Origin: Longimicrobiales bacterium | Lineage (GTDB): Bacteria; Gemmatimonadota; Gemmatimonadetes; Longimicrobiales; Gaopeijiaceae | Assembly (NCBI GenBank): GCA_963422615.1 | Contig: OY730414.1 | Span: 806,001 to 870,000, forward strand | Length of the DNA: 64,000 nt | Direction: 5' to 3' | Shown: piece after piece, positions 2,410-34,753 of the stretch | Position numbering within the stretch: position 1 is the first letter of the stretch | Layout of the letters: every line of letters starts with the position of its first letter | Notes under the pieces: model-generated | Told to the model about the DNA's origin: nothing | The model's database searches: none | The model's input: only the letters and a program-made list of their open reading frames with translations | Program-made: the position numbers and the translations under genes

Positions 2410-4436
2410 TTTCGATCTTGACCGCGGGCCGCCGCCCGACCCGTTTGCGCATCTTCGCCATCTTTCCATTTGCTGCGGGGCTTGCCTCTCTGGCGGGTTG
2501 CGCTTCTCAGCCGTCAACTACCGGCGGAAGCGTGGCCGTCCCCGCCGCGGAATCCCCGGTTCCCCTTGTGGCGAACCCGCCTTCGCCGGATCCGCGCGAA
2601 GGCCTGTCCCCCGGATTGTTCGACGCCGGGGAGGCCGTGTGGAACCTGCGTATGGTATCGACCACGCCGCCGCCGGACCCCTTTGTGGGCGTGACGAATT
2701 CGGATCTCGCCTTCACCGGCGACTATGCAATTCAGGGAAACTATAACGGGATCCAGGTGTGGGACATCTCCGACCCGGCGAACCCGGAGTCCGTCGTTAC
2801 GCATGTGTGTCCCGCCTCCCAGAGCGACGTTTCGGTGTACGAGCACCTCTTGTTCGTTTCAGGAGAGGGTCTGGGAGGGCGGCTGGACTGTGGGGAACAG
2901 GGGATCGGAGAGGCGGTGAGCCACGACCGTCTTCGGGGTATCCGAATCTTCGACATCTCGGACATCACCCGCCCCGAGTACGTCGCCAATGTGCAGACCT
3001 GCCGGGGCTCCCATACCCACACGGTGCTGAAGCATCCGGGAGACGACGAAAACGTCTACATCTACGTGTCCGGCTCGGCTCCGGTGCGGCCCGCGGAAGA
3101 GCTGCCGGGGTGCTCCGCTGCGCCACTCGGCGAGGACCCGAATTCGGCCCTGTTCAGGATTGAGGTGATTCGGGTGCCTCTTGACGACCCTGAAAGCGCG
3201 GCGATCGTGAGCTCGCCCCGCATTTTCCAGGGTCTGGTGGCTCCGCCGACCCACGGCTTGGCACCGGACGACCTGGCAGTCATTGAGGAAGCGCGAGCCC
3301 GAGGCGCGTTTGTCGTGGAGGTGGCAAACCAGCCGTTCGTACTGCCCGACCCGATGGTCGGCAACATGCTGGACAGCATCGTGACGGCTCGGGGGGGCGA
3401 GGGCGCTCCAACTGCGGCCGACAGCACGGCGCTGCGCAGCGCGCTCCCGCGGATGGTGGCCGAAATGATGGGCCAGCCAGAGGACGACGACGAGGGACCC
3501 AGGCCGGGCCCGACCCAATGCCATGACATTACGGTGTACCCGGCCATCGGCTTGGCTGGGGGTGCGTGCGGGGGCTACGGGCTTCTTCTGGACATTCGCG
3601 ATCCCGTCAATCCGAGACGCCTTGCGGCGGTGGCGGATTCGAACTTTGCGTATTGGCACTCTGCCACCTTCAACAACGACGGAACCGCGATCCTGTTCAC
3701 CGACGAATGGGGTGGGGGTGGACAACCGAAGTGCCGGGCATCGGACCCGATGGAGTGGGGTGCCAATGCCATCTTCACCATTGAAGAAGGAGACATGGAG
3801 TTCCAGAGCTACTTCAAGATTCCCGCTGCCCAGACTCCCCAGGAGAACTGCGTAGCCCACAACGGATCCCTGATCCCGGTCCCGGGCCGGGACATCATGA
3901 TTCAGGGATGGTATCAGGGCGGAATCTCTCTGATCGACTGGACCGACGCCGGAAACCCGACCGAGATCGCGTACTTTGATCGGGGCCCGATAGACGGAAG
4001 CCGCATGAGAATGGGCGGAAGCTGGTCGGTTTACTGGTACAACGGCGTGATCGTCAACTCGGAGATCGCTCGGGGGCTGGATATCTTCGAGCTGATCCCG
4101 AGCCAAGTGCTTACCCGGAACGAGATCGATGCGGCCAATTCGGTTCGACTCACCTACCTCAACTCCCAGGGCCAGCCGATTTTCGAATGGCCGGCCACCT
4201 TCGCCCTGGGGAGGGCGTACCTGGACCAACTCGCGCGTTCGCAGGGACTCCCCACAGATCGGATCGCGGCGGTACGGAGCGAACTGGCAAGAGCCGAGAT
4301 GGTGTCGGGTGCGGCGCGCCAGAACGCCTTGCGCGCGTTGGCCGAAGCGCTGAACGGGGATCGCATCGATTCTCCGGACTCGGCCAAGGTCGCGAAGCTG
4401 GAGGACGCGGTGCGGCGCTTGGCGGAAGGCCCATGA
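2406..4436 (+). CDS. LVIVD-repeat-like secreted beta-propeller lipoprotein
   Basis: ATGA overlap with the DUF305 gene; lipobox LAGC; repeats IQVWDISDP, IRIFDISDI, LLLDIRDP; motifs GSHTHT, CHDITV, CVAHN. Confidence 0.75.
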   Translation: MISILTAGRRPTRLRIFAIFPFAAGLASLAGCASQPSTTGGSVAVPAAESPVPLVANPPSPDPREGLSPGLFDAGEAVWNLRMVSTTPPPDPFVGVTNSDLAFTGDYAIQGNYNGIQVWDISDPANPESVVTHVCPASQSDVSVYEHLLFVSGEGLGGRLDCGEQGIGEAVSHDRLRGIRIFDISDITRPEYVANVQTCRGSHTHTVLKHPGDDENVYIYVSGSAPVRPAEELPGCSAAPLGEDPNSALFRIEVIRVPLDDPESAAIVSSPRIFQGLVAPPTHGLAPDDLAVIEEARARGAFVVEVANQPFVLPDPMVGNMLDSIVTARGGEGAPTAADSTALRSALPRMVAEMMGQPEDDDEGPRPGPTQCHDITVYPAIGLAGGACGGYGLLLDIRDPVNPRRLAAVADSNFAYWHSATFNNDGTAILFTDEWGGGGQPKCRASDPMEWGANAIFTIEEGDMEFQSYFKIPAAQTPQENCVAHNGSLIPVPGRDIMIQGWYQGGISLIDWTDAGNPTEIAYFDRGPIDGSRMRMGGSWSVYWYNGVIVNSEIARGLDIFELIPSQVLTRNEIDAANSVRLTYLNSQGQPIFEWPATFALGRAYLDQLARSQGLPTDRIAAVRSELARAEMVSGAARQNALRALAEALNGDRIDSPDSAKVAKLEDAVRRLAEGP

Positions 4437-4480
4437 TGTAACAGCAGAATCGACCGATCCAGCCCCGGGGGAGAGTACGG

Positions 4481-5236
4481 TCAGGGCACCTCGATCGATA
4501 TCCCAACCCGGAAGGTGACGAGATTCGTTTCGCTCAGGACGGGACGGACGACCCACGAGCCCCTGCGCGATTGATGCAAGTCCCCTTTGGTCAGGTACTC
4601 GGTCTGTCCGTGGCGCTGGTATAGTGCCGACACGTCCAGGGAAACGGGTTTCTGTCCGCTGGACAGCCGGATGGCAAGACCACCCCCGGCCGTCAAGGCG
4701 AGGGACAGATCGTCAAAGTTGGTCGTAGAGGCGAATTCCTCAAAGTCGGAGGTCCCGCTCACCCCCGTTTTGGTTGCAAAGTACGAAACCCCCACGGTGC
4801 CGAAGATGTAGGGCCGAAGGGCTCCCTGCGCCAGGAAAACCTGGGGGCCTACTCCTGCAGAAGCGATATAGTTGGTGGTCCGCACATCAACATCCACAAA
4901 GGGAATTGTCGGACTCAGTGGGGCCTGAAAGGAATCGGTGCCGTAGATGATGAAGGCCCCTTCCATACGGAGGGCGGCGATTCCCTCCCCGCCCAGGTAG
5001 ATCAAGCCCCCCAGTCCTCCCCCTCCTCCGAGATCTACGTGGTCCCCGAACTGGCCGACGGGAACGGCCAGATTGCCGTTGAAGAAGAAACTGCCCCGGA
5101 TCGGTTCCTGCGCTTCGACGCAACTGTGGCATTTCCCCAAAGATCCGGCGGGGCCTGCGGCCGTCAGTGCCAAATCGGCGAGGATCACAACTCCCGCCAT
5201 CCCGACGATTCCAAACTTGCTTGTCGCTCCAAACAT
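4481..5236 (-). CDS. outer-membrane beta-barrel protein
   Basis: Signal-like N-terminus from ATG 5236; alternating amphipathic strands; C-terminal FRVGISI strand. Confidence 0.65.
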   Translation of the reverse strand: MFGATSKFGIVGMAGVVILADLALTAAGPAGSLGKCHSCVEAQEPIRGSFFFNGNLAVPVGQFGDHVDLGGGGGLGGLIYLGGEGIAALRMEGAFIIYGTDSFQAPLSPTIPFVDVDVRTTNYIASAGVGPQVFLAQGALRPYIFGTVGVSYFATKTGVSGTSDFEEFASTTNFDDLSLALTAGGGLAIRLSSGQKPVSLDVSALYQRHGQTEYLTKGDLHQSRRGSWVVRPVLSETNLVTFRVGISIEVP

Positions 5237-22702: not shown

Positions 22703-25700
22703 TTATCGGAGTGCGCCTCCCGTCCCCGCCGGCCGAAGCCCGGCCGCGGCGCTGCTGGCGTCCGCTTCCTGCGATCGCTGTCGCTCCAGCGGACGTGGCT
22801 CCGGGTACACCTCGCCAAGGGTCATCCCGTCGTAGAGGCGGCCGTCCTTCATCACATAACGGATGTCGACGGTGTTGCGCAGGTCCTCCATGGGGTTCGA
22901 ATTCAGAATCACGATGTCGGCGAACTTGCCCTCTTCGATACTGCCCAGCTGGGCGCCGAATCCGATGGCCTCTGCGCCCAGGAGCGTAGCCGCTCGCAGG
23001 ATGTCGTGATTCGCGGCGCCTCCGGCCGCCATGGCCCAGAGCTCCCAGTGGTACCCAATCCCCTGGATCTGTCCGTGGCTCCCGACAGCCATGCGGGCGC
23101 CATCTTCAAGCATCTTCTTGACGAACGCTCCGTGGCGCGGAAAGACGTATTCTTCCTTCAGGAACCAGCCGGCCTGACCCGGGCTTCCTCCGGCACCGGG
23201 GCCCCGTCGCCGGACCCGGGTGTCGATGTTGTCTCCGGGCACGAACATGTTGAGCTTCGCGTCGTCGTGGACGTTTTCCGTGGTGTAGAAATAGTTCTCG
23301 CCGAAGGGTCCACCGTAGGAAACGAGAAGCGTGGGAGTATTCGTGGTTTGTGATTCCTTGAAGAGTTCCACCACGTCGGAGTAGATGGGCGCGATGGGAA
23401 GGTTGTGCTCGATTCCCGGGTAACCGTCTATGGCATGGGTCATGTCGATCTTGAAGTCGAGCCCGCCTTCCGTGGTCGGCATGAGTTCGAGGCTTCGCGC
23501 CGCCTGGATGACCCACTGGCGCTGCTGACGGTTCCCCGTCATGTACATCTTGAGGGTTTTCGTGTCGAAGTACTCCGAGTAGCGCCTCAGGATCGTCTTG
23601 GCGTGGTCGGCGTCGCGAATGTTCTCGCTGACGAAAACGCCCGGTCCCGTCGAATAGATGCGGGGTCCGGTCATGCCCCCGGTGCGGACCCGATCCGTGT
23701 AGCTGAGAATATCCGTGAACGCCGTCTGGGGGTCCCGGGTCGTCGTAACCCCGTAGGACAGCGTCGTGAGGTACTGCCAGACTTCCTCGGGGTGGATTTC
23801 GGGGACGAGCCACTGGGCGTGGTAGTGCGTGTCCACGAAGCCCGGCACGAGGGTGTTTCCGGTAACGTCGATGACCTGTGCGCTGTCCGGAACCTCGACG
23901 GAGTCCGCCGGCCCTACCGCGACGATCTTGTTGTCCTTCACGACCACAACGCCGCCCTCAATGATGTGGGGCGCCCCGGTGGTATCCCCGGGTACGCTTG
24001 CCATCGTGATGATCCGTCCGCCCTGCAGGGCGACGGTGCCCCGCGGAATGTCCCGGGGCAGCATGACCTCGATCTTCCGTTCTTCGGCTTCGTACGCCTC
24101 CGTCGAATCCGCCAAGACTTCTTTGTCCCCGTCCCGAACCGCGTTCGCCTTGGCGGCGAATTCTTCCGCCGCTCGGCGGATGGAGTCGGCCCGCGCCATC
24201 AGGGAATCGGCGACCACTTGGACCGAATCCGCCGCCAGCCGCACGATCTCCGCATCAAGGGAATCGGGGACCTCTTCATCGGCCTTCTTCAGACTGTCGG
24301 CTTCGGCTCGCTTCTCCTTGAGAGTGTCCGACACGGCCATTGCCCGTACCCTGAGGAGGGCCCGGCCGTGAGCGGTTTCTTCTTCGGCAGCTTCTTCGGC
24401 TTCGACGTGGTCCAAGTCGTAAGTGAACAGGACGTTCCCCATGGCCCAGTGCAGAGCGGATCCGTCCGGGGCCCAAGACGGAAACTCCCCGCCGACATCC
24501 GTCACTTTTCGCACGGGCACCGGGGACGCCGCCAGATTGGCAAGGACGATGGAGGGGGGTGTTTCGCCCACTTCGGCGAGTTCCACAACGAAGACGTCCC
24601 GACCGAACTGGGCGAAGGCCCGGTCTCCTTCCGGAGAGAGCATCACCAGGCCTGCCGGCTGAGGCCCGCCGGGCTCGGCGGCGGGGTCGGGATCTGTCGG
24701 ATCGGGGGCCTTCCGCCACGGGAAAACGCGCCGGGGAAGGTACTCCCACTCCTCGGGGTGCGGGCTGCCGATCCCGGGAACTCCCTGGCGCCCGCGCACC
24801 ACCAAGTGGCGCTTCACGTCCGTGCCGTCCCAGCGGAAGGAAACCAAGCCTTCGATGGGGCTGTAGGCATAGATTCGTCCGGGGTCGTCCGACGCGAAGT
24901 GGGCCACGTCCCGAAATCCCGTGGGCGAGATCACCTCTGCCTCCGCGGGACCGGCCCCCTCGGAGGGCACCCAGACGAACTCCCCGCCGATGGGTCCGAA
25001 GAAGATTCCCGAGGCTTCCTTGAGCTCCCGAGCGGCACCTCGGGAGGCGACGATCCGCTCCCCGTCCGGGGACCAGGCCACGTTGTAGTACAGGGCCGCA
25101 GTGGTGGTGAGCTGCGTAGGCGGGCCCCCTTCGGCGGGCGCCTTCATGATGTGGCCGCCGTTGGCGTCGTCCCAGGTGGTGTAGGCGATCCACCGGCCAT
25201 CCGGGGACCACTGTGGATGGAATTCTCCCACATCGGCGTCCGTGAGACGGCGGGCTTCCCCATCGGGGAGATTTTTTGTCCACAGGCGATCGAACGCCGT
25301 AAAGACGATCTGACCGCCGCCGGGCGCCGCCGCCGGGTTTCGAATCTGGCTGGCCGTTACCATGGCGGTGGTGTCGATCGAGTAGGCGAACTTCACTTCG
25401 GGGCCGACGCTCAGCTCGACGGGCACTTCGAACTCGATCTCGGTCGCGTCTCCCCCGTCCATGGGCACGTTCCAAATCTTGCCGCCGTACGATACCACGA
25501 TGGCGGATCCGTCGGGCATGAAGGCGTAGCCGGGCAGCAGGTCCAGAGGTGCCCGCGATTCCTGCTCGTCGCGCTGCACGGGATAGGCCAGCCACGCCTC
25601 ATCTCCCGTCTCTAGGTCACGCTTGCGCAGCCCGGTGTCGGCGTTGTAGCGGGTTCCGTAGACAAGCCAGCGGCCGTCGGGTGAAATCGCGGGGCGGAAG

Positions 25701-26434
25701 GCAGATCCGTAGCGGTTGGTCATCCCCGTGTGGACGCCGGTCTCCCGGTCATACCGGTACAGCTGATAGCGGGGAAGCCTGGCGTTGTATTGCCAGTCCC
25801 CCGGGGCCGCAGCGTACCACACGTGCTGACCATCCGGGCTGAAGGCCGCGCCGACTCTCTTGAGCGCCGGGGAACCGCCCCCAAAGGCCAGGGGCGACCC
25901 GCGTTCGGCGTGGTACATGAAGAGCTGGGCCGCGCCGCCCAGGCCCCCGGACCGACTCACCACGATGAAATCCCCGTCGGGGGTCCATTCCGGGGACAGG
26001 AACAGGTTCGAGTTGCCCCGGGATACCTGGGTGGTATCGGTCTTGTCCAGGCGCATGGTCCAGAGGTTGTCCCCTCCGCTGCGGTCGGAGATAAAGGCCA
26101 CCGACTCCCCATCGGGGCTGAAGCGGGGCTGAACGTCGTACGCCATCCCGGTGAGGAGGGGGGACGCTTGACCTCCGGTGACGGGAAGGGTGTAAAGGTC
26201 TCCCAGAAGGTCGAAGACGAGGGTCTGCCCGTCGGGGCTGATGTCCAGGGAGATCCACGTGCCCTCGGTGGCGGTGAACTCCGCCGTGCGAGCGCTGTTC
26301 AGCGGCAAGGGGTTCGGTCGCGACCGCCCGCCGCCCTGCTGGGGCGACGCGGCTTCTGGCACAACGGTGACGGTCAGCGCAAGGGCCAGGAGGGTCCGGG
26401 CGGCGGGTCCGAACGCCCTTCCGCGGGGCCTCAT
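22703..26434 (-). CDS. secreted amidohydrolase family protein with N-terminal TolB/PD40 beta-propellers (paralog 2)
   Basis: PD40 repeats (SPDG), PGFVDTHYH metal motif, GVTTTRDP, GSIEEGKFADIVIL..NP; ATG 26434 overlaps the upstream TGA. Confidence 0.9.
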   Translation of the reverse strand: MRPRGRAFGPAARTLLALALTVTVVPEAASPQQGGGRSRPNPLPLNSARTAEFTATEGTWISLDISPDGQTLVFDLLGDLYTLPVTGGQASPLLTGMAYDVQPRFSPDGESVAFISDRSGGDNLWTMRLDKTDTTQVSRGNSNLFLSPEWTPDGDFIVVSRSGGLGGAAQLFMYHAERGSPLAFGGGSPALKRVGAAFSPDGQHVWYAAAPGDWQYNARLPRYQLYRYDRETGVHTGMTNRYGSAFRPAISPDGRWLVYGTRYNADTGLRKRDLETGDEAWLAYPVQRDEQESRAPLDLLPGYAFMPDGSAIVVSYGGKIWNVPMDGGDATEIEFEVPVELSVGPEVKFAYSIDTTAMVTASQIRNPAAAPGGGQIVFTAFDRLWTKNLPDGEARRLTDADVGEFHPQWSPDGRWIAYTTWDDANGGHIMKAPAEGGPPTQLTTTAALYYNVAWSPDGERIVASRGAARELKEASGIFFGPIGGEFVWVPSEGAGPAEAEVISPTGFRDVAHFASDDPGRIYAYSPIEGLVSFRWDGTDVKRHLVVRGRQGVPGIGSPHPEEWEYLPRRVFPWRKAPDPTDPDPAAEPGGPQPAGLVMLSPEGDRAFAQFGRDVFVVELAEVGETPPSIVLANLAASPVPVRKVTDVGGEFPSWAPDGSALHWAMGNVLFTYDLDHVEAEEAAEEETAHGRALLRVRAMAVSDTLKEKRAEADSLKKADEEVPDSLDAEIVRLAADSVQVVADSLMARADSIRRAAEEFAAKANAVRDGDKEVLADSTEAYEAEERKIEVMLPRDIPRGTVALQGGRIITMASVPGDTTGAPHIIEGGVVVVKDNKIVAVGPADSVEVPDSAQVIDVTGNTLVPGFVDTHYHAQWLVPEIHPEEVWQYLTTLSYGVTTTRDPQTAFTDILSYTDRVRTGGMTGPRIYSTGPGVFVSENIRDADHAKTILRRYSEYFDTKTLKMYMTGNRQQRQWVIQAARSLELMPTTEGGLDFKIDMTHAIDGYPGIEHNLPIAPIYSDVVELFKESQTTNTPTLLVSYGGPFGENYFYTTENVHDDAKLNMFVPGDNIDTRVRRRGPGAGGSPGQAGWFLKEEYVFPRHGAFVKKMLEDGARMAVGSHGQIQGIGYHWELWAMAAGGAANHDILRAATLLGAEAIGFGAQLGSIEEGKFADIVILNSNPMEDLRNTVDIRYVMKDGRLYDGMTLGEVYPEPRPLERQRSQEADASSAAAGLRPAGTGGALR

Positions 26435-29400
26435 CGTCCGTCTCCCGAAATGCCGGCCCGGACATCGGGCGCCGCGTGCCTCCACGGCTCGTCCGGCGCG
26501 GGTCGCATTCTCGGCCACAACTCGTCAAGCGTGTTCCCGTCGTAGAGCCTTCCGTTCATCATCACCTGGCTGACCGTGTTCGTGTTGCGGATGTCGTCCA
26601 AAGGATTGGCGTCCAGAATGACCAAGTCGGCGAGCTTCCCGGCCTCGATCGAACCCAGGTCGCGGCCAAGCCCGATCGCCCGCGCACCCATGATCGTCGC
26701 AGCCCGCAGGGCGTCGTGCTCCCTCATGCCCCCGCTCTGCAACGCCCAGAGCTCCCAGTGATAGCCCAGTCCCTGAAGCTGCCCGTGACTGCCGACGCCG
26801 GTCTTCCCGCCGTCCGCTACCAGCTGGGCAAGCCACCCGGAGTGCTTCCGGAAGGCATATTCCTCGTCCATAAACCACCCTCCGGGGCCCGGGCCCGTGG
26901 TTTGAAGGCGCCGGGCCTTGAAGTCGAGTTCCCGTTTCGGGGTAAAGTGGGTGAGCTTCTGGTCACCGAAGATGTCTTCGTGAGTGTAGAAGTAGTTTTC
27001 TGCCCAGGGCCCGCCGTACGAAACCAGCAGGGTTGGCGAATTCACCGTTCCCGAAGCAGCGAAAAGCTCCACAACATCCTGGTAGGCCGGAACGATGGGC
27101 ATCGAATGTTCGATCCCCGGGTAGCCGTCCATGGCATGGGTCATGTTGAGCCGGTAATCCAGGCCCCCTTCGGTGGTAGGCATCAGCTCCAGCTCCCGGG
27201 CAGCCATGATGAGCCATTGCCGCTGCCGGCGATTGCCCGACATGTACATCTTGAAGGTCTTGGTGTCGTAGTACCGGCTGTACTTGCGCAGTACGTCAAC
27301 GGCGTGTTCGTAGCTGCGCACGAAGTCGAAGGCGAAAACACCCGGACCCGTGTGATAAATTCGGGGACCCACGATCTCTCCGGCCCGGACTCTGTCTTCG
27401 TACGAGAGTACGTCGGTGGTGGCGGTCTGTGGGTCTCGCGTGGTGGTCACGCCGTAGGCCAGGTTCGCCTGGTAGATCCAGGGCCGGGACCAGTGAAATC
27501 CCCACAGGTTCCACATGTGGGCGTGGGTGTCGACGAAGCCTGGCACGATCGTCTTGCCGGCGACGTCGATCACTTCGGCCCCTTCCGGGACGACCCCCGG
27601 GCCGGCCGATACCGTCGTGATTCGGTTGTTCGTGATCACGATGTCGGCGTTTTCGATGACCTCGTCTCCGTTCATCGTGATGGCCCGGGCCCCCCGCAGG
27701 ACCACAACCCCCTGGGGGATGTCCCGCTGGGCCGTTACCCCGATCTGTTGCTCTGACGGCACGTAAGCTGGGTCGTTTTCGGCCGCGTCCAGGTCGTAGG
27801 TGAACAGGGCGTTCCCAAGGGACCAGTGAGCCGTGCGCCCGTCCGCGCCCCAGGCCGGAAACTCGATCCCGAGCTCGTTGAGCCTGCGAACCGGAACCGC
27901 GGCGGAGTCCGGCTTGAAAACGTCGACCTCCGGCAGCGTTGCGCCAAGTCCGGGCACGGTAACGGCGTACAAGTTGTCCCCGACCTGGGCGAGGGCCAAG
28001 TCACCCCGGGGGGCCATCATGACGAAGCCGGCGGACTGCCTGGGCACCAGCTCCCGGGGCTGGTCGTCGTCGAACTCCTGGGGCAACACAAGGTCGGAGG
28101 TCTCGGAGAGCCTGTACCCGTCAGGAACCCCACCTGCGGAAAAATCGATCCGGGCCGTGACTCTGAGATGAGACTTCACGTCAGTGTCATCCCAGCGGGC
28201 CGAGGTGAGCGCCAGGGTTCGCGGCGGCGCGCTCGGCGATCCCGGCACAGGGTCGGCCCGAGCGAAGCCGTAGTAGTAGATGCGGTCGGGGTCCGCCGTG
28301 AAGTGGGGCATCCTTCGTCCGCCGGTGGGACCGATGGTTGTGGCGTCACCCCCGTCGGCAGGAATCCAGACGAATTCGGAGTCGAGGCCGAAGCCGATGA
28401 ACGGGTCGATGGCCTCCTGGACATTCCGGCGGGAGGATCGAATCGACACGATCCGGCGGCCGTCCGGGGACCACGCGATCTGCTGATAATACGCCGGGGT
28501 CGTGGTCAGGGTGGACGTGGACCCGCCGTCGGCCTCCACGCGCCGAATGTGTCCCTCCCCCGAGTCGTCGTCCCACGTCACGTAGGCCACGTAACGCCCG
28601 TCGGGCGACCAGGCCGGGTGGTATTCCCCGACTGGGTCGTCGGTGAGCCGGCGCGGCGTGCCGTCCGGTAGGTCGGCGATGTAGAGGCGGTCAAGCGCCG
28701 TGAAGGCGATCCGCCCGCCGTCCGGCGAAGGGCGGGCATCCCGAATCTGCTTGACCGTAAAGGTCGGCGTGTCTTGAATCGGGTACTCGAATTCCACTTC
28801 CGGGCCGATCGCCACCTCGGCTTGGGCGGTGAACGGAATCTCGGCGGGGTCGGTGCCGTCAACGGGGACCCGCCAAATCCGACCGCCATAGGATAGAACC
28901 AGGGCGTCGGACCCGGGCGTGAAGGTATAGCCCGGCAAGACATCCATGTTTGCCGTCGATTCCTGGTCGTCGCGCTGCACCGGGTACGCGAGCCATCGCT
29001 CCTCTCCGGAGGCCAGTTCCCGAAGGCGAATGCCGGTTTCGGCGTCGTCTCTGCTCCCGTACGCGAGCCACTGTCCGTCGGGGGAGACGGCGGGGCGGAA
29101 GGCGGACCCGTAGCGGTTGGTCATCGGGGTCCGCGTCCCCGTGCGGCGGTCGTAGACCCAGAGTTGGTACTGGGGCAGGATCGCGTTGTAGCTCCACATG
29201 CCCATTCGCTGGGCGTACCACACGTAGCGCCCTTCGCTGTCCACAGCCGGCCCCATCATTCGCCCCGAGCCACCCACCATCTCCAGGCCGGTGCCGCCGT
29301 CGACATGGTAGAGCCACAGCTTCTCCAAGCCCCGGCGGGGGGCCGCCCGGGACACGACGATGTACTTTCCGTCCGGCATCCAATCGGGGGACAGGAAACG

Positions 29401-29796
29401 GCTTCCGATGCCCTTGCTCAGCTGCCGGGGTTCACCGCCAGTGGCAGGCATCAGCCACACGTTGTTGTCGCCGCTGCGGTCGGAGACGAAGACGATTCGC
29501 TCCCCGTCGGGGCTGAAGCGCGGCTGCATGTCGTGCGCCAATCCGCTGGTAAGACGGTTCGCTTCACCCCCTTCGGCTGGTATCGTGTAGAGGTCACCCA
29601 GGAGGTCGAAGACGATCGTGCTTCCGTCAGGGCTCATGTCCAGGGAGATCCAGGTGCCTTCGCTGGTCGTGAAACGGGCCCAGCGGGCAGCTTCCAGAGG
29701 AAGCCCCCGGTCTGGGTCCGCCTCCTGGGCTTGCGTGGAGAGCGGTGGAAGCAGAAAGAGGGCAGCCGTGATGAGGCCGCGGTCAAACAGACGCAT
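26431..29796 (-). CDS. secreted amidohydrolase family protein with N-terminal TolB/PD40 beta-propellers (paralog 1)
   Basis: Signal peptide, many SPDG repeats, PGFVDTHAH, GVTTTRDP, GSIEAGKLADLVILDANP. Confidence 0.9.
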   Translation of the reverse strand: MRLFDRGLITAALFLLPPLSTQAQEADPDRGLPLEAARWARFTTSEGTWISLDMSPDGSTIVFDLLGDLYTIPAEGGEANRLTSGLAHDMQPRFSPDGERIVFVSDRSGDNNVWLMPATGGEPRQLSKGIGSRFLSPDWMPDGKYIVVSRAAPRRGLEKLWLYHVDGGTGLEMVGGSGRMMGPAVDSEGRYVWYAQRMGMWSYNAILPQYQLWVYDRRTGTRTPMTNRYGSAFRPAVSPDGQWLAYGSRDDAETGIRLRELASGEERWLAYPVQRDDQESTANMDVLPGYTFTPGSDALVLSYGGRIWRVPVDGTDPAEIPFTAQAEVAIGPEVEFEYPIQDTPTFTVKQIRDARPSPDGGRIAFTALDRLYIADLPDGTPRRLTDDPVGEYHPAWSPDGRYVAYVTWDDDSGEGHIRRVEADGGSTSTLTTTPAYYQQIAWSPDGRRIVSIRSSRRNVQEAIDPFIGFGLDSEFVWIPADGGDATTIGPTGGRRMPHFTADPDRIYYYGFARADPVPGSPSAPPRTLALTSARWDDTDVKSHLRVTARIDFSAGGVPDGYRLSETSDLVLPQEFDDDQPRELVPRQSAGFVMMAPRGDLALAQVGDNLYAVTVPGLGATLPEVDVFKPDSAAVPVRRLNELGIEFPAWGADGRTAHWSLGNALFTYDLDAAENDPAYVPSEQQIGVTAQRDIPQGVVVLRGARAITMNGDEVIENADIVITNNRITTVSAGPGVVPEGAEVIDVAGKTIVPGFVDTHAHMWNLWGFHWSRPWIYQANLAYGVTTTRDPQTATTDVLSYEDRVRAGEIVGPRIYHTGPGVFAFDFVRSYEHAVDVLRKYSRYYDTKTFKMYMSGNRRQRQWLIMAARELELMPTTEGGLDYRLNMTHAMDGYPGIEHSMPIVPAYQDVVELFAASGTVNSPTLLVSYGGPWAENYFYTHEDIFGDQKLTHFTPKRELDFKARRLQTTGPGPGGWFMDEEYAFRKHSGWLAQLVADGGKTGVGSHGQLQGLGYHWELWALQSGGMREHDALRAATIMGARAIGLGRDLGSIEAGKLADLVILDANPLDDIRNTNTVSQVMMNGRLYDGNTLDELWPRMRPAPDEPWRHAAPDVRAGISGDGR

Positions 29797-29944
29797 GCGC
29801 CGACTCCGTGTGCGACGGTGAGTTGTGTTGCCGGTACCCGGGACGGATCGAAGCTCCCGGGGGCCACTGCGTAAATATGTACGAAGGAATACGTACGAGG
29901 GAAATCATATCATAGTGTCACGGATTGCCGGGGGCCACCAAGCG

Positions 29945-30224
29945 ATGTCACTGCCGCTTGGCGGAACGCCCCCCGGATCATCGAGCAACCCGGAGTTCCA
30001 GAACGCCAAGTCCCGGATCGGCCGAGGCCATTTCTACCTGGATCCGCCGCTGCGGCTCACCCGCAAGTTTTTGCGGCAACGACCTTGGGTATCGGCGACT
30101 GCCCGGCCAGCTGCTGCCGTTGAAAAAACTCGAACGCGAGATGTCTTGCGGATTGCCCTACGAGCGTGATCTCCTGAACGTCATCCGGCAGGCCGGGGGG
30201 TGCCGGCGGTTCAGCTCGTCCTGA
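29945..30224 (+). pseudogene. gene remnant of unknown identity
   Basis: Two offset frames with gene-like, GC3-rich codons (SNPEFQNAKSRIGRGHFYLDPPLRLTRKF / NDLGYRRLPGQLLPLKKLERE...ERDLLNVIRQAG); no intact gene. Confidence 0.3.
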
Positions 30225-30254
30225 TTGGGATCGTTCCGTGATCGGATTCGCCGC

Positions 30255-30921
30255 ATTGGTGCCCGCCCGGACCGCCGTGCCGCGAGTGTTGCGTCCCCGG
30301 GCGACCCATGAGTGCTGTCCGTTGTTCGAGACCGGGAGGGACAGGGGAGAGTTGTGGTCGGAGCGGCTAGCGTATAACGTGGCACGCCGGATCGGTTGGC
30401 GTCTTCCAACGAAAAGGCCCGAATGCTTTTACTCGCTGCGAGCTGTCTGGGGCCGAGGCTGTGAACACCCGGGAGAATGAACCGAGAACCTGCGAACAAG
30501 GCACCCGATGACCTCCTCCAAGTCCCTCCGCTGGCTCCTGACCGTCCTCGCCGCCTTGGCCTGCGAGGACACCCCTACCAAACTGCCGGTTTCGGCCGAA
30601 GACCGGGTTGTGCTGGAGGTGCTGTACGCGGCCACGGCCGGGCGGAACTGGTTGAGGAGCGCGAACTGGCTGACGGATGCGCCCCTATACGAATGGTACG
30701 GGGTGGATACCGACGACGCCGGGCGAGTGACGCGCCTGAACCTTGTCTCCAACCGTCTTACCGGGCCGATTCCGGCGACCTTTCTGCAACTTACCGAGCT
30801 CACCCATTTGCTCATCCAAAGAAACGATGGCCTGTGCGTCCCCGACACACCTGCCTTCCAGGCGTGGCTGAACGCCCTGGCGTACCATGATACCACGATG
30901 TGCCCCAAACTACTGTCCACT
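30255..30921 (+). repeat. copy 1 of the duplicated LRR-lipoprotein unit (~250-bp upstream region, signal, N-cap, C-cap)
   Basis: Near-identical to 31321-33037 apart from the internal repeats; both start ATTGGTGC and end ACTGTCCACT. Confidence 0.95.
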
Positions 30922-30981
30922 TCGACCGGAGGAAATGTGTTTCGCCTACACCCCGCAAAACGGCGTATCTCTATAGTATAG
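30508..30981 (+). CDS. short LRR lipoprotein (N-cap joined directly to the terminal repeat and C-cap)
   Basis: Lipobox LAALAC; DR..L..LY.AT.G.NW...NWL...P...W.GV N-cap; a single LTGPIP; LCVP..AF..WL C-cap. Confidence 0.75.
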   Translation: MTSSKSLRWLLTVLAALACEDTPTKLPVSAEDRVVLEVLYAATAGRNWLRSANWLTDAPLYEWYGVDTDDAGRVTRLNLVSNRLTGPIPATFLQLTELTHLLIQRNDGLCVPDTPAFQAWLNALAYHDTTMCPKLLSTSTGGNVFRLHPAKRRISIV

Positions 30982-31320
30982 CAGTGTTTCGGGGCCATGG
31001 GGGGGATCTGGAAGGCACAAGAGGGAGCCTACGCTCCTACGCTCCTAAAGGGAACGTACGGGGGGCTTCCCTGGAGGTCAGCCCCCGAAGTTCCTAAAGA
31101 CAACCCCTCCCGCCAAAAGTGGCAGCCCGGAGGGATTACCGGGGCTTGCCGGGTGGTAGTACCTTGCGAGGGTGCGGCAGGGCGGCGAAGCGGGCCGGGT
31201 GGCTGGCCGGGAGCTCGCGATGCGAGGACGATGACGAAGAGGTCGGGTGCGGATGCGGGTGCTTCATGTTTGTTTTGTTCTTGTGGTTTGGGTGCTCTTA
31301 AGCGGGTAAGGGGGTTGTGG

Positions 31321-33037
31321 ATTGGTGCGCGCCCGGACCGCCGTGCCGCGAGTGTTGCGTCCCCGGGCGACCCATGAGTGCTGTCCGTTGTTCGAGACCG
31401 GGAGGGACAGGGGAGAGTTGCGGTCGGAGCGGCTAGCGTGTAACGTGGCACGCCGGATCGGTTGGCGTCTTCCAACGAAATGCCACGAAAGGCCGAATGC
31501 TTTTACTCGCTGCGAGCTGTCTGGGGCCGAGGCTGTGAACACCCGGGAGAATGAACCGAGAACCTGCGAACCTACAAGGCACCCGATGACCTTCCCCAAG
31601 TCCCTCCGCTGGCTCCTGACCGTCCTCGCCGCCTTGGCCTGCGAGGACACCCCTACCGACGAGGACACCCCTACCGAACTGCCGGTTTCGGCCGAAGACC
31701 GGGTTGTGCTGGAGGTGCTGTACGCGGCCACGGACGGGCCGAACTGGTTGAGGAGCGTGAACTGGCTGACGGATGCGCCCCTACACGATTGGTACGGGGT
31801 GGATACCGACGACGCCGGGCGAGTGACGCGCCTGCACCTCGTTGGAAACTATCTTACCGGGCCGATTCCGGCGGAACTCGGCGACCTCGCCAACCTGGCA
31901 TACTTGCACCTCTACTCCAACGATCTTACCGGGCCGATTCCGGCGGAACTCGGCGACCTCGCCAACCTGGAATACTTGTACCTCGGCTCCAACGATCTTA
32001 CCGGGCCGATTCCGGCGGAACTCGGCGACCTCGCCAACCTGGAATACCTGAACCTCAGCTACAACGATCTCACCGGGCCGATTCCGGCGGAACTCGGCGA
32101 CCTCGCCAACCTGGAATACCTGAACCTCAGCAACAACGATCTCACCGGGCCGATTCCGGCGGAACTCGGCGACCTCGCCAACCTGGAATGGCTGAACCTC
32201 GGCTCCAGCCGTCTTACCGGGCCGATTCCGGCGGAACTCGGCGACCTCGCCAACCTGAAAACCCTGGGCCTCGGCGCCACCGATCTTACCGGGCCGATTC
32301 CGGCGGAACTCGGCGACCTCGCCAACCTGGAATACCTGGACCTCGGCTACAGCCGTCTTACCGGGCCGATTCCGGCGGAACTCGGCGACCTCGCCAACCT
32401 GGAAGGGCTATACCTCGGCGGCAACGGTCTTACCGGGCCGATCGGTCTTACCGGGCCGATTCCGGCGGAACTCGGCGACCTCGCCAACCTGGAATCCCTG
32501 GGCCTCGGCGGCAACGGTCTTACCGGGCCGATTCCGGCGGAACTCGGCGACCTCGCCAACCTGGAATCCCTGGACCTCGGCTACAACTATCTTACCGGGC
32601 CGATTCCGGCGGAACTCGGCGACCTCGCCAACCTGAAATACTTGCACCTCGGCGGCAACGATCTCACCGGGATTCCGGCGGAACTCGGCGACCTCGCCAA
32701 CCTGAAATACTTGCACCTCGGCGGCAACGATCTCACCGGGATTCCGGCGGAACTCGGCGACCTCGCCAACCTGGATTACCTGAACCTCGAGGACAACGGT
32801 CTTACCGGGCCGATTCCGGCGGAACTCGGCAACCTCGCCAACCTGAGAGTCCTGCGGATCGAGGACAACCATCTTACCGGGCCGATTCCGGAGACCTTTC
32901 TGCAACTTACCACGCTCGAGGTTTTGTACATCCAAGGAAACGATGGCCTGTGCGTCCCCGACACACCTGCCTTCCAGGCGTGGCTGAACGCCATTGCGTT
33001 CCATAAAACCACGATGTGCCCCAAAGTACTGTCCACT
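31321..33037 (+). repeat. copy 2 of the duplicated LRR-lipoprotein unit
   Basis: Same boundaries as copy 1, with 14 internal LRR repeats inserted. Confidence 0.95.
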
Positions 33038-33145
33038 CAGCCCCGCGCTGCTCTGCGAAGTGCGACGGTCAGGGCTTGGACGCGGCCCCCCCCCTGTCGT
33101 CTCGCACGTGAGGGTTTTCCGCCACCGTTTTGTGGACCACTTTAG
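31586..33145 (+). CDS. leucine-rich repeat lipoprotein (24-aa plant-receptor-like LRR, 16 beta-strand units)
   Basis: ATG 31586; lipobox LAALAC; repeats xxLxLxxNxLTGPIPAELGDLANL; Cys-containing C-cap. Confidence 0.95.
   Translation: MTFPKSLRWLLTVLAALACEDTPTDEDTPTELPVSAEDRVVLEVLYAATDGPNWLRSVNWLTDAPLHDWYGVDTDDAGRVTRLHLVGNYLTGPIPAELGDLANLAYLHLYSNDLTGPIPAELGDLANLEYLYLGSNDLTGPIPAELGDLANLEYLNLSYNDLTGPIPAELGDLANLEYLNLSNNDLTGPIPAELGDLANLEWLNLGSSRLTGPIPAELGDLANLKTLGLGATDLTGPIPAELGDLANLEYLDLGYSRLTGPIPAELGDLANLEGLYLGGNGLTGPIGLTGPIPAELGDLANLESLGLGGNGLTGPIPAELGDLANLESLDLGYNYLTGPIPAELGDLANLKYLHLGGNDLTGIPAELGDLANLKYLHLGGNDLTGIPAELGDLANLDYLNLEDNGLTGPIPAELGNLANLRVLRIEDNHLTGPIPETFLQLTTLEVLYIQGNDGLCVPDTPAFQAWLNAIAFHKTTMCPKVLSTQPRAALRSATVRAWTRPPPCRLAREGFPPPFCGPL
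31856..32845 (+). repeat. intragenic ~72-bp tandem array: 14 scaffolds (42 bp) alternating with 30-bp variable windows
   Basis: ACCGGGCCGATTCCGGCGGAACTCGGCGACCTCGCCAACCTG: 11 exact copies, 2 lacking one CCG codon, 1 with GAC>AAC. Confidence 0.97.
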
Positions 33146-33224
33146 GAGGCCGGAGGCCGCTTCCTGCCCTCCAAGCAGCGACTTGATCCGCGCGGCGATC
33201 TCATCCGAGATGGCCCTGATGTCG

Positions 33225-34337
33225 TCAATCCTCACAGGGGAATGCCGTGTCATCATAGTCGAGTACCGGCGGGCAAGAGATAATCCTGCCGTTGCGGTTG
33301 GCCACGCCGGCAATGATGCTCCTGTCAATGTCGTCCCTGGGCTTGTTGGCGCCAGCCCCGGCAAGCGTGGCGCTTTCGGTCCACTCGTCGTAATCCGTCC
33401 TCCAGATCTCCCATAGCGGCTCGCACGGCGACGAGTCCCGCTCGGGCCGCAAGGGCGGGGAGCCCGAGTTGGGGTCGCAGTCACCGAATGCCCAGTCGGG
33501 CACGTTGCCGCAACAGAACAGCTGTGAGCCTACCGCGAGGTTATCGATGAAAACGGGCTTTGCGGAAGTATCACGGCCGGGCACGTAGTGGTTCCGCATG
33601 ATCTGGGCTTTGGTCGGGGATCCATGAGCGTTTGAGTTTTGGATCTCAATCGCCTTTCTCCCCGGGTTAAAGATGACGTTTCCGATCACCTCGACCTTCG
33701 TTCTGCCGTCGATGCGCGGGTTGCGTTTGTCGTTGGAAGCGAAAACGTTCCGAAGCACGCTCACGCCTTTTGCTCCGGGCCCGATGAGCAAGCCCATTGA
33801 ATGCGGCCCGTAGCGGTGTTCGGCCTCGTGGAGGCCTTGCGCGATTAGGCAATTCGAAATCGTCACGTTCTCGATGGCGTACGTCGTGTTTTCGTTCCAG
33901 AGCTGGATGTTTTCGTCCGTGGCCCATGTCGCCGAGCATTGGTCGATGACGACGTTTCGGATGCCGGATTTGGCCTTGCAGGTAAGGTAAATGGCGATCC
34001 CGTCCCGGGTGTCCGGCGATCCCCCCGTGCGACCGGGCCTGGTGCGCATATGCCGCACGATTACTTCGCTTGCCCGGATCGAGATGCCCCTGCCTACGAG
34101 AGTGATTCCGGGCGCGGGAGCGGTCTCGCCGTCAAGAGTGATGTACGGGCTTTCGATGACGAGATCGCTCTCCAGCCTAATGACCCCGCCGACGCTGAAC
34201 TCGATCTTCCTGCGTCCCGTGCTGGCGCACGCTTCGCGAAGTGAGCCCGGCCCGCTGTCGCTAAGGCAGGTGACCTTGACGGCCTTGCCGTCTTTGCCAC
34301 CAACTGTATTTGCGCCGAAGCCTTCGTATGAAGTCAT
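33225..34337 (-). CDS. pectate lyase-like (PL1-type) right-handed beta-helix protein, no signal peptide
   Basis: EGFGA.T.GG..G...V..L.DSGPGSLR.A, ITLDGETAP.PGI, VIDQCS..WATDE, RNP; RBS AAGGAG. Confidence 0.88.
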   Translation of the reverse strand: MTSYEGFGANTVGGKDGKAVKVTCLSDSGPGSLREACASTGRRKIEFSVGGVIRLESDLVIESPYITLDGETAPAPGITLVGRGISIRASEVIVRHMRTRPGRTGGSPDTRDGIAIYLTCKAKSGIRNVVIDQCSATWATDENIQLWNENTTYAIENVTISNCLIAQGLHEAEHRYGPHSMGLLIGPGAKGVSVLRNVFASNDKRNPRIDGRTKVEVIGNVIFNPGRKAIEIQNSNAHGSPTKAQIMRNHYVPGRDTSAKPVFIDNLAVGSQLFCCGNVPDWAFGDCDPNSGSPPLRPERDSSPCEPLWEIWRTDYDEWTESATLAGAGANKPRDDIDRSIIAGVANRNGRIISCPPVLDYDDTAFPCED

Positions 34338-34410
34338 TCTGGTTCTCCTTCTGTTTGAGTTCCGTTTGCGAAAATCGTGCCTGGATCCAGTGCGACAACG
34401 AAGATGGATA

Positions 34411-34528
34411 TCAGAGCCTCAACGCGTCGATGCGTTCTTTGAGAGCAAGGCGTCGGTTCGGTGGTTCAACTCGTTTGAGTCCTGATGATCGCGGCACGGG
34501 TGTACTTCAGCAGGTAGGACGACTCCAT
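34411..34528 (-). pseudogene. RelE/ParE-like toxin N-terminal remnant (frameshifted, truncated)
   Basis: GGAGG RBS and ATG 34528: MESSYLLKYTRAAI, continuing in a shifted frame as GLKRVEPPNRRLALKERIDALRL*. This fits the RelE N-terminal pattern (Y.L.Y...A...LK.l....R..l...I..L). Confidence 0.55.
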
Positions 34529-34535
34529 CCTCCAC

Positions 34536-34750
34536 CTAGTCGACGATCTCTCGGAGCGCGGCTTCCAGTTCGGCTCCTTCGACCAGCTGGCCGGGGTTGC
34601 GGTCGATTTCCGCGATCCGCTCCCTGGCCACCTGTGCGTCGGCCTGTGGCCCCGTACATCTTCGATGATCCGAATCAATGGTATGGCCTGGATGGCCGAC
34701 TGCGCAACCTCTGCCAAGTGGACTTCACGGCTTTTGCGGGCGAGCTTCCC
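34536..34750 (-). pseudogene. type II antitoxin remnant (frameshifted)
   Basis: ...AIPLIRIIEDVR then, after a frameshift near 34650, QADAQVARERIAEIDRNPGQLVEGAELEAALREIVD*; ends 7 nt before the toxin-like ATG. Confidence 0.5.
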
Positions 34751-34753
34751 TGA

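What the first reader, a model, noticed from the sequence alone, without database searches (positions are those of the whole stretch)
30255..33037. 'Empty' and 'loaded' copies of the same LRR-lipoprotein cassette side by side
Seen: both copies share ~250 bp of upstream DNA, the signal/lipobox, N-cap and C-cap, with sharp common ends (ATTGGTGC... and ...ACTGTCCACT). Copy 1 joins the first LRR strand directly to the terminal repeat at CTTACCGGGCCGATTCCGG, while copy 2 has 14 repeats there. The shared unit has no stop codon, so each ORF ends in unrelated flanking DNA. Inference: a duplicated or mobile cassette whose repeat content is gained or lost by recombination at the scaffold, loosely analogous to germline versus assembled lamprey VLR genes.
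Basis: partly seen in the sequence, partly recalled or inferred. Interest (0 to 1): 0.78.

Follow-up and report, generated by a model that had tools for sequence, protein, structure and literature searches.

The report
Duplicated LRR gene, one copy collapsed
A bacterium carries two neighbouring copies of a gene for a predicted surface lipoprotein with plant-receptor-like leucine-rich repeats, one with 14 more repeats than the other, likely because ordinary recombination between near-identical repeats shrank one copy, which is a known way of varying binding proteins rather than lamprey-style gene assembly.

Summary
Two copies (30255-30921, 31321-33037) share upstream DNA and both caps; copy 2 has 14 more 72-bp repeats. 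They are the only copies in the genome, and contigs of 4 of 4 public runs cross copy 1's junction with no differences. The VLR analogy fails: copy 1 is an in-frame gene, there is no donor-cassette pool and no reverse transcriptase. The same minimal two-strand module occurs inside other proteins and is predicted to fold (pLDDT 87). Mobility is unsupported, although the pair sits in a lineage-specific 5-kb insertion. Best reading: a recent local duplicate of a widespread modular plant-type LRR protein, whose array likely contracted to zero inner repeats by recombination at its 97.5% identical scaffold, while face codons diversify (pN 0.37, pS 0.04). It works like fungal HNWD repeat arrays but is not a member. 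The scan noted the same scaffold/face pattern before on other DNA (e1-5317260). Repeat-number variation within the population was not tested. New member of a known kind; modest interest.

The parts
29797..34753 (.). Lineage-specific insertion (about 5 kb) between the amidohydrolase and arginase genes; holds both LRR copies and a beta-helix gene
   Evidence: In 54 of 80 relatives' arginase loci the amidohydrolase lies divergently upstream, median gap 228 bp, 52 of 54 at most 1.2 kb; none of the 80 has an LRR or beta-helix hit in that interval
30255..30507 (+). Copy 1 upstream DNA (shared, presumed promoter/leader)
   Evidence: 93.6% identical to 31321-31585 with indels, 3 mismatches in 252; no Rfam match, fold z 0.93, no sigma-70 consensus site
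30508..30981 (+). Copy 1 ORF, 157 aa: predicted signal peptide and lipobox-like Cys19, N-cap, one LRR strand, C-cap strand, C-cap with two Cys, private tail
   Evidence: AlphaFold2 pLDDT 87, pTM 0.77; fold hits Bacteroides LRR proteins, PGIP and plant receptor ectodomains
30727..30777 (+). Copy 1 single LRR strand and junction (19-21 bp homology at 30757-30777)
   Evidence: Strand codons 4-11 differ at 3 bases from inner unit 32183 but at 8 from copy 2's first strand; crossed by contigs in 4 of 4 runs
30922..31320 (.). Unique 399-bp spacer
   Evidence: No other match in the genome or to the flanks; its 126-aa ORF has no Pfam hit at E 1e-8
31321..31585 (+). Copy 2 upstream DNA
31586..33145 (+). 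Copy 2 ORF, 519 aa: same signal, caps, 15 LRR strands plus C-cap strand, private tail; 18-bp duplication at 31642-31677
   Evidence: best solved-structure hits are plant receptor kinase ectodomains GSO1, FLS2, MIK2
31823..32914 (+). 72-bp repeat array: near-invariant scaffold, variable beta-strand face; slippage scars (18-bp duplication 32425-32460; two identical 69-bp units at 32633 and 32702)
   Evidence: Scaffold 97.5% and face 69.3% identical among 13 inner units; face pN 0.366, pS 0.044; scaffold pN 0.004, pS 0.073; 28 of 91 site pairs four-gamete incompatible
33225..34337 (-). Right-handed beta-helix (pectate-lyase-like by recall) gene in the same insertion
   Evidence: Weak Pfam Beta_helix hit below the curated cut-off; match in 1 of 150 family genomes at E 1e-20

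Best explanation
These are two recent neighbouring paralogs of a modular plant-type LRR protein, predicted to be lipoproteins, and copy 1 likely lost all its inner repeats by unprogrammed recombination or slippage between near-identical 72-bp units. Shown: both copies exist side by side in several samples; the array has a homogenised scaffold, a face that changes almost only at amino-acid-changing positions, mosaic units and slippage scars; the family varies from 0 to over 17 inner repeats; the minimal module is a natural building block. Inferred: (1) an LRR gene arrived in a 5-kb insertion and was duplicated locally, and a later deletion removed one flank, which gives two sharp ends without a mobile element; (2) unequal exchange at the scaffold adds, removes and shuffles units (RecA is present); (3) selection favours new residues on the concave ligand-binding face, so the long copy is a variable surface binder, probably for host, phage or neighbour molecules; (4) copy 1 is the contracted end state, a foldable mini-LRR under partly relaxed constraint, not a precursor waiting to be loaded.
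For: Two copies only. Junction real in 4 of 4 runs. Exact matches of 42-62 bp between most consecutive units; neighbours more alike than shuffled order, p 0.012; 28 of 91 site pairs incompatible. Face pN/pS about 8, scaffold pN 0.004. Copy 1's strand is closest to an inner unit (3 differences) and keeps the inner-type GCG codon at the junction, as expected of a deletion product. Relatives: 79 modules from 19 genomes span 1-17 inner repeats; tandem paralogs sharing 5' DNA at 84-95% with different repeat counts occur in G128 and G111; G005 has arrays with 95-97% scaffold identity. Zero-repeat module in P0146 with the same cap, and 17 similarly short modules with a related cap in 4 other proteins. 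At 4 of the 5 differing sites with a common family residue, copy 2 keeps it and copy 1 departs. Repeat loss is the commonest event in fungal HNWD arrays (PMC2873952, section read).
Against: The order of events and the direction (loss from copy 1 versus growth in copy 2) are not fixed, because no same-genus genome exists as outgroup. The copies differ by 21 amino-acid-changing versus 2 silent codons (pN 0.094, pS 0.037, one-sided p 0.041), more than a simply decaying copy would give, so copy 1 may be under selection itself. No face or length variants were listed in four runs, although those contigs break in the array and drop rare variants. A plain tandem duplication does not by itself explain a unique spacer; a second event must be assumed. 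No ligand, expression or localisation data.
Confidence: 0.72

Rival explanations
1. The zero-repeat gene is ancestral or independently functional, and copy 2 expanded its array after the duplication; both are selected, diverging binders.
For: Minimal modules exist in other proteins and the model is confident; amino-acid-changing excess between copies, also outside the face (pN 0.060, pS 0.015); the very uniform scaffold points to recent amplification in copy 2.
Against: 0 of 79 modules in 19 related genomes and 1 of 483 same-cap modules among distant hits have zero inner repeats; an array cannot easily start without a first inner scaffold, which copy 1 lacks; copy 1's strand resembles an inner unit.
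Confidence: 0.12
2. The pair is an exchange system: copy 2's array donates face strands or whole units to copy 1 by gene conversion, giving variable short binders (contingency-locus or loosely VLR-like).
For: Copy 1's strand is 3 bases from inner unit 32183 and 8 from its positional counterpart; shared upstream DNA is less diverged than the coding caps, which fits ongoing conversion; RecA is present.
Against: Copy 1 pieces are identical to the window in 4 of 4 runs; no donor pool, no dedicated recombinase nearby, no reverse transcriptase; the arrangement does not recur in 19 related genomes.
Confidence: 0.1
3. The unit is a mobile cassette inserted twice.
For: Sharp common ends, unrelated flanks; lies in a lineage-specific insertion.
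Against: Two copies only, 399 bp apart; upstream DNA not matched in 150 family genomes; no mobility gene in the window; no terminal repeat or target duplication seen.
Confidence: 0.05
4. Copy 1 is a collapsed assembly of the array.
For: Near-identical repeats are hard to assemble; the short-read contigs do break in the array.
Against: 33 base differences between the copies in coding caps; junction crossed with 0 differences at depth similar to the flanks in 4 of 4 runs.
Confidence: 0.01

Closest known systems
Fungal HNWD / NLR repeat arrays with high internal conservation (het-d, het-e, het-r of Podospora; PMC1805685 abstract, PMC2873952 abstract and one section)
   Same: Near-identical tandem units, concerted evolution, diversifying selection on a few residues of the binding surface, frequent loss and gain of units, paralogs with different unit numbers.
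   Different: Bacterial, LRR instead of WD40, predicted exported lipoprotein with no NTPase or death domain; allelic polymorphism and exchange between loci not shown here.
Plant-specific 24-residue LRR ectodomains (GSO1, FLS2, MIK2, PGIP) and Bacteroides LRR proteins 4ECO/4ECN
   Same: Repeat class and capped solenoid fold.
   Different: No kinase or membrane span; units almost identical at DNA level; own N-cap/C-cap module that is chained in larger proteins, often before an HExGH peptidase-like domain.
Lamprey VLR germline and assembled genes (PMC3308329, passages read)
   Same: N-cap and C-cap shared by a short and a long form; short homology at the scaffold; variable concave face.
   Different: No non-coding intervening sequence, no pool of donor cassettes, both forms are separate fixed genes in one chromosome.
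Eukaryotic-like LRR proteins enriched in sponge symbionts (PMC11706023, passages read)
   Same: Multi-copy LRR genes in an uncultured bacterium whose neighbours by sequence are Gemmatimonadota MAGs named Longimicrobiales and Candidatus Palauibacter.
   Different: The host of this genome was not established here; the sponge link is recalled for those clades. The passages read count domains and do not describe repeat-level evolution.

Membership tests
VLR-type germline/assembled LRR locus | Incomplete germline gene with a non-coding intervening sequence between the caps | tested here: not met
   Copy 1 is a continuous 157-aa frame, predicted to fold; feature from PMC3308329 passages
VLR-type germline/assembled LRR locus | Many flanking donor LRR cassettes | tested here: not met
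   tblastn of two units: six clusters, five inside intact genes, one single weak hit
VLR-type germline/assembled LRR locus | Assembled forms differ between cells | tested here: inconclusive
   No variants listed in 4 runs, but these are contigs that drop rare variants and break in the array
VLR-type germline/assembled LRR locus | Dedicated cytidine deaminase (recalled) | not tested
   Not searched
Diversity-generating retroelement | Reverse transcriptase and template repeat | tested here: not met
   No PF00078 match in the 98% complete genome; no other copy of the region
Diversity-generating retroelement | Adenine-specific mutagenesis | tested here: not met
   0 of 91 scaffold consensus-A cells changed, silent ones included
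Mobile cassette (IS, integron cassette) | Mobility enzyme nearby | tested here: not met
   31 window ORFs against Pfam
Mobile cassette (IS, integron cassette) | Terminal repeats, target duplication or attC site; dispersed copies | tested here: not met
   Ends inspected by eye, no inverted repeat of 25 nt or more at the ends, two copies only; no attC model was run
HNWD-type repeat arrays with high internal conservation | Concerted evolution of units | tested here: met
   Scaffold 97.5% identical; mosaic sites
HNWD-type repeat arrays with high internal conservation | Diversifying selection on binding-surface codons | tested here: met
   Face pN 0.366, pS 0.044 over non-independent pairs of 13 units; face position assigned from the LRR consensus (recalled)
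HNWD-type repeat arrays with high internal conservation | Repeat-number polymorphism between alleles | tested here: inconclusive
   Differs between paralogs; not resolvable between samples
HNWD-type repeat arrays with high internal conservation | STAND NTPase plus WD40 architecture | tested here: not met
   Pfam shows LRR families only
Plant-specific LRR class | 24-residue unit LxxLxLxxNxLxGxIPxxLGxLxx (consensus recalled) | tested here: met
   Units; top solved-structure hits are plant receptor ectodomains
Bacterial lipoprotein | Signal peptide II with lipobox Cys | not testable with these tools
   Basic start, hydrophobic stretch and LAALAC by inspection; the box is not canonical and no predictor was available

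The most novel reading that the evidence does not exclude
The long copy acts as a reservoir that feeds variable face strands or whole units into a functional two-strand mini-LRR next door by gene conversion, so the bacterium makes a changing set of short and long surface binders from one locus: an unprogrammed bacterial counterpart of variable lymphocyte receptors, within a very large and little-described family of modular plant-type LRR proteins.
Probability: 0.1. Interest if true: 0.68.

Novelty: new member of a known kind. Interest (0 to 1): 0.3.

Why it matters
It is a clean natural snapshot of both ends of repeat-array dynamics in one locus, and shows the fungal-NLR style of diversification (uniform scaffold, selected face) in a predicted surface LRR protein of an uncultured Gemmatimonadota bacterium. 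The family is very large (28,752 representatives at E 0.001, many through the LRR units alone), and eight literature searches listed no paper describing its repeat-level evolution; the library lacks most subscription journals. The 122-residue two-strand module may interest LRR-binder engineers. It does not show a new diversification mechanism.

Tried and rejected
Assembly collapse: rejected. DGR: rejected. Structured RNA upstream: no Rfam match, fold z 0.93. Promoter consensus: 0 sites. Protein pattern scan of genome contigs with copy 1: no confirmed relative. No RNA holder listed. Raw or long reads over the locus were not seen, so variation between cells stays open. The joint 31492 to 30419 in run X4 and the two 'other letters' in X1/X2 mix alleles of the two copies at summed depth and are read as assembler collapse, not as recombinants. 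Raised depth in X3 affects pieces specific to both copies, so it is not taken as copy-number change. A strict pattern for the second cap type found 0; the 17 short modules are read by eye. The first synteny check on 7 loci found no amidohydrolase and was superseded by 80 loci. The window's scaffold identity of 0.927 includes mis-registered units; 0.975 is the registered value. One search's codon table contains one misaligned codon, corrected.

Full report
Observation. They encode a 157-aa ORF (30508-30981) and a 519-aa ORF (31586-33145). Both begin with a signal-like stretch and a lipobox-like Cys (by inspection), then an N-cap, LRR strands and a C-cap with two cysteines. Copy 1 has one strand plus the cap strand; copy 2 has 14 more units. 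The window lies in a single-contig genome of 2.57 Mb, 98% complete, and upstream DNA, N-cap and C-cap each occur exactly twice in it. The neighbouring arginase is 70-81% identical to those of 80 records named Gemmatimonadota, Longimicrobiales or Candidatus Palauibacter; a sponge host is my recall for these clades and was not shown here.

Not an artefact. The copies differ at 33 bases in 138 shared codons. In 4 of 4 public runs laid (2 studies; 4 of 16 listed runs), contigs cross copy 1's junction with no differences, at depths near those of the flanks (89 vs 71-91; 71 vs 50-52; 308 vs 191-192; 19 vs 8-17), and pieces specific to copy 2's N-cap are present too. One run may be the source sample. 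These contigs break inside the array and drop rare variants, so repeat number per cell could not be read.

The array. Among 13 inner units the scaffold is 97.5% identical in DNA and the seven face codons 69.3%. Face pN is 0.366 against pS 0.044; scaffold pN is 0.004 against pS 0.073 (pairs are not independent). Most consecutive units share 42-62 bp of exact match, neighbours are more alike than shuffled order (p 0.012), and 28 of 91 informative site pairs fail the four-gamete test. An 18-bp duplication, two identical 69-bp units and an 18-bp duplication after the Cys are slippage scars. A retroelement is excluded: no reverse transcriptase and 0 of 91 scaffold adenine cells changed.

Copy 1. 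Its junction sits in a 19-21 bp homology and keeps the inner-type GCG codon; its strand is 3 bases from inner unit 32183 and 8 from copy 2's first strand. Both fit a deletion product of a once-loaded gene, though conversion from copy 2 would look the same. The copies differ by 21 amino-acid-changing and 2 silent codons (pN 0.094, pS 0.037, one-sided p 0.041; against silent plus upstream sites p 1.5e-5). Both lineages carry rare residues, and at 4 of the 5 sites with a common family residue copy 1 is the one that departs, which hints at relaxed constraint; the invariant core residues are intact. AlphaFold2 with a 25-row alignment of longer modules gives pLDDT 87, with matches to Bacteroides LRR proteins, PGIP and plant receptors; the alignment favours a folded model, so this is a prediction only.

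The family. Copy 1 has matches in 24 of 120 family genomes, up to about 30 per genome. In loci chosen from the best hits, 79 distinct modules from 19 genomes carry 1-17 inner repeats and none carries zero. Among 150 best distant proteins, 801 N-caps were found, 483 with a detected C-cap; 1 of these 483 (P0146) has exactly copy 1's spacing, and 17 more N-caps in four proteins are followed by the next within 112 residues and read by eye as two-strand modules with a related cap. So the 'empty' form is a rare but natural minimal module. Tandem paralogs with shared 5' DNA and different repeat counts occur in G128 and G111. Scaffold identity in 35 relatives' arrays has a median of 72%, with face pN above overall pS in 20 of 35; G005 reaches 95-97%. 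The window's array is thus at the uniform end of a continuum. Single-module relatives end 2-12 residues after the last Cys, so the shared unit ends about where such genes stop.

Context. In 54 of 80 relatives' loci the amidohydrolase gene lies just upstream of arginase (median gap 228 bp; 52 of 54 within 1.2 kb), whereas here the gap is 4957 bp and holds both copies and a beta-helix gene found in 1 of 150 family genomes. No mobility gene was found among 31 window ORFs; three tyrosine recombinases lie more than 480 kb away; no serine recombinase was found; RecA is present. The upstream DNA has no match in 150 family genomes, no Rfam family and no unusual fold.

Mechanism. Most likely (0.72) a recently acquired LRR gene was duplicated locally, a later deletion removed one flank, and recombination at the scaffold contracted one array to zero inner units while the other keeps shuffling a selected face. 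The duplication path, the direction and the ligand are inferred. Rivals: copy 1 ancestral or independently selected (0.12), an exchange system between the copies (0.10), a mobile cassette (0.05), an artefact (0.01).

Comparison. It works like the fungal HNWD arrays: concerted evolution, selection at the binding surface (PMC1805685, abstract seen) and repeat loss as the commonest event, 87% and 79% of mutants (PMC2873952, abstract and section 6 read); it is not a member, having no NTPase. [quoted passage not shown] LRR enrichment in sponge symbionts is known (PMC11706023, passages read). Eight searches listed no paper on this module family; other listed papers were seen only as listings, and no supplements were opened. 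The scan's note e1-5317260 reports the same scaffold/face pattern in a bacterial Roco LRR arm; I did not test it.

Verdict. Real, neatly illustrative, and explained by known processes: new member of a known kind, interest 0.30.

Noticed in passing
window 32633-32770 and G000:C1:6358-6909: 23-residue LRR units (one residue shorter after LTG) occur in two separate loci of this genome (2 and 8 units) with different DNA, but in 0 of 48 LRR frames from relatives: convergence or old exchange between loci.
   Followed up: partly
G000:C1:5242-9009, 2147739-2150654, 2543274-2543831, 2476-4500: Four other LRR genes: two chain the same modules in front of an HELGH peptidase-like domain, one is a short single-module lipoprotein-like gene, one has a different LRR class.
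   Followed up: partly
window 33225-34337: Beta-helix gene of lower GC (60.6%) in the same insertion, rare in the family.
   Followed up: partly
window 22703-29796: Two tandem beta-propeller plus amidohydrolase paralogs, conserved next to arginase in many relatives.
   Followed up: partly
window 30355 and 30374 (copy 2: 31421, 31440): Two of the three upstream substitutions fall in or beside a weak TTG-N-TAACGT promoter-like element; the consensus scan did not call it. Speculative.
   Followed up: no
P0014 (2901 aa), P0068: Proteins built largely from tandem minimal N-cap/two-strand/C-cap modules (11 and 4 short modules).
   Followed up: partly
L062 (G111:C1:1856000-1872000): Tandem repeat of a three-gene unit with an LRR-peptidase gene; the small third gene and its flanks are 94-95% identical between three copies.
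   Followed up: no
L066 5891-9886 (G123): Two inverted near-identical transposase-like copies directly behind a single-module LRR gene.
   Followed up: no
window 33004-33700 in run X4: Contig depth right of copy 2 is about half of that on the left (8 vs 17), unlike in X1-X3; possible strain difference.
   Followed up: no
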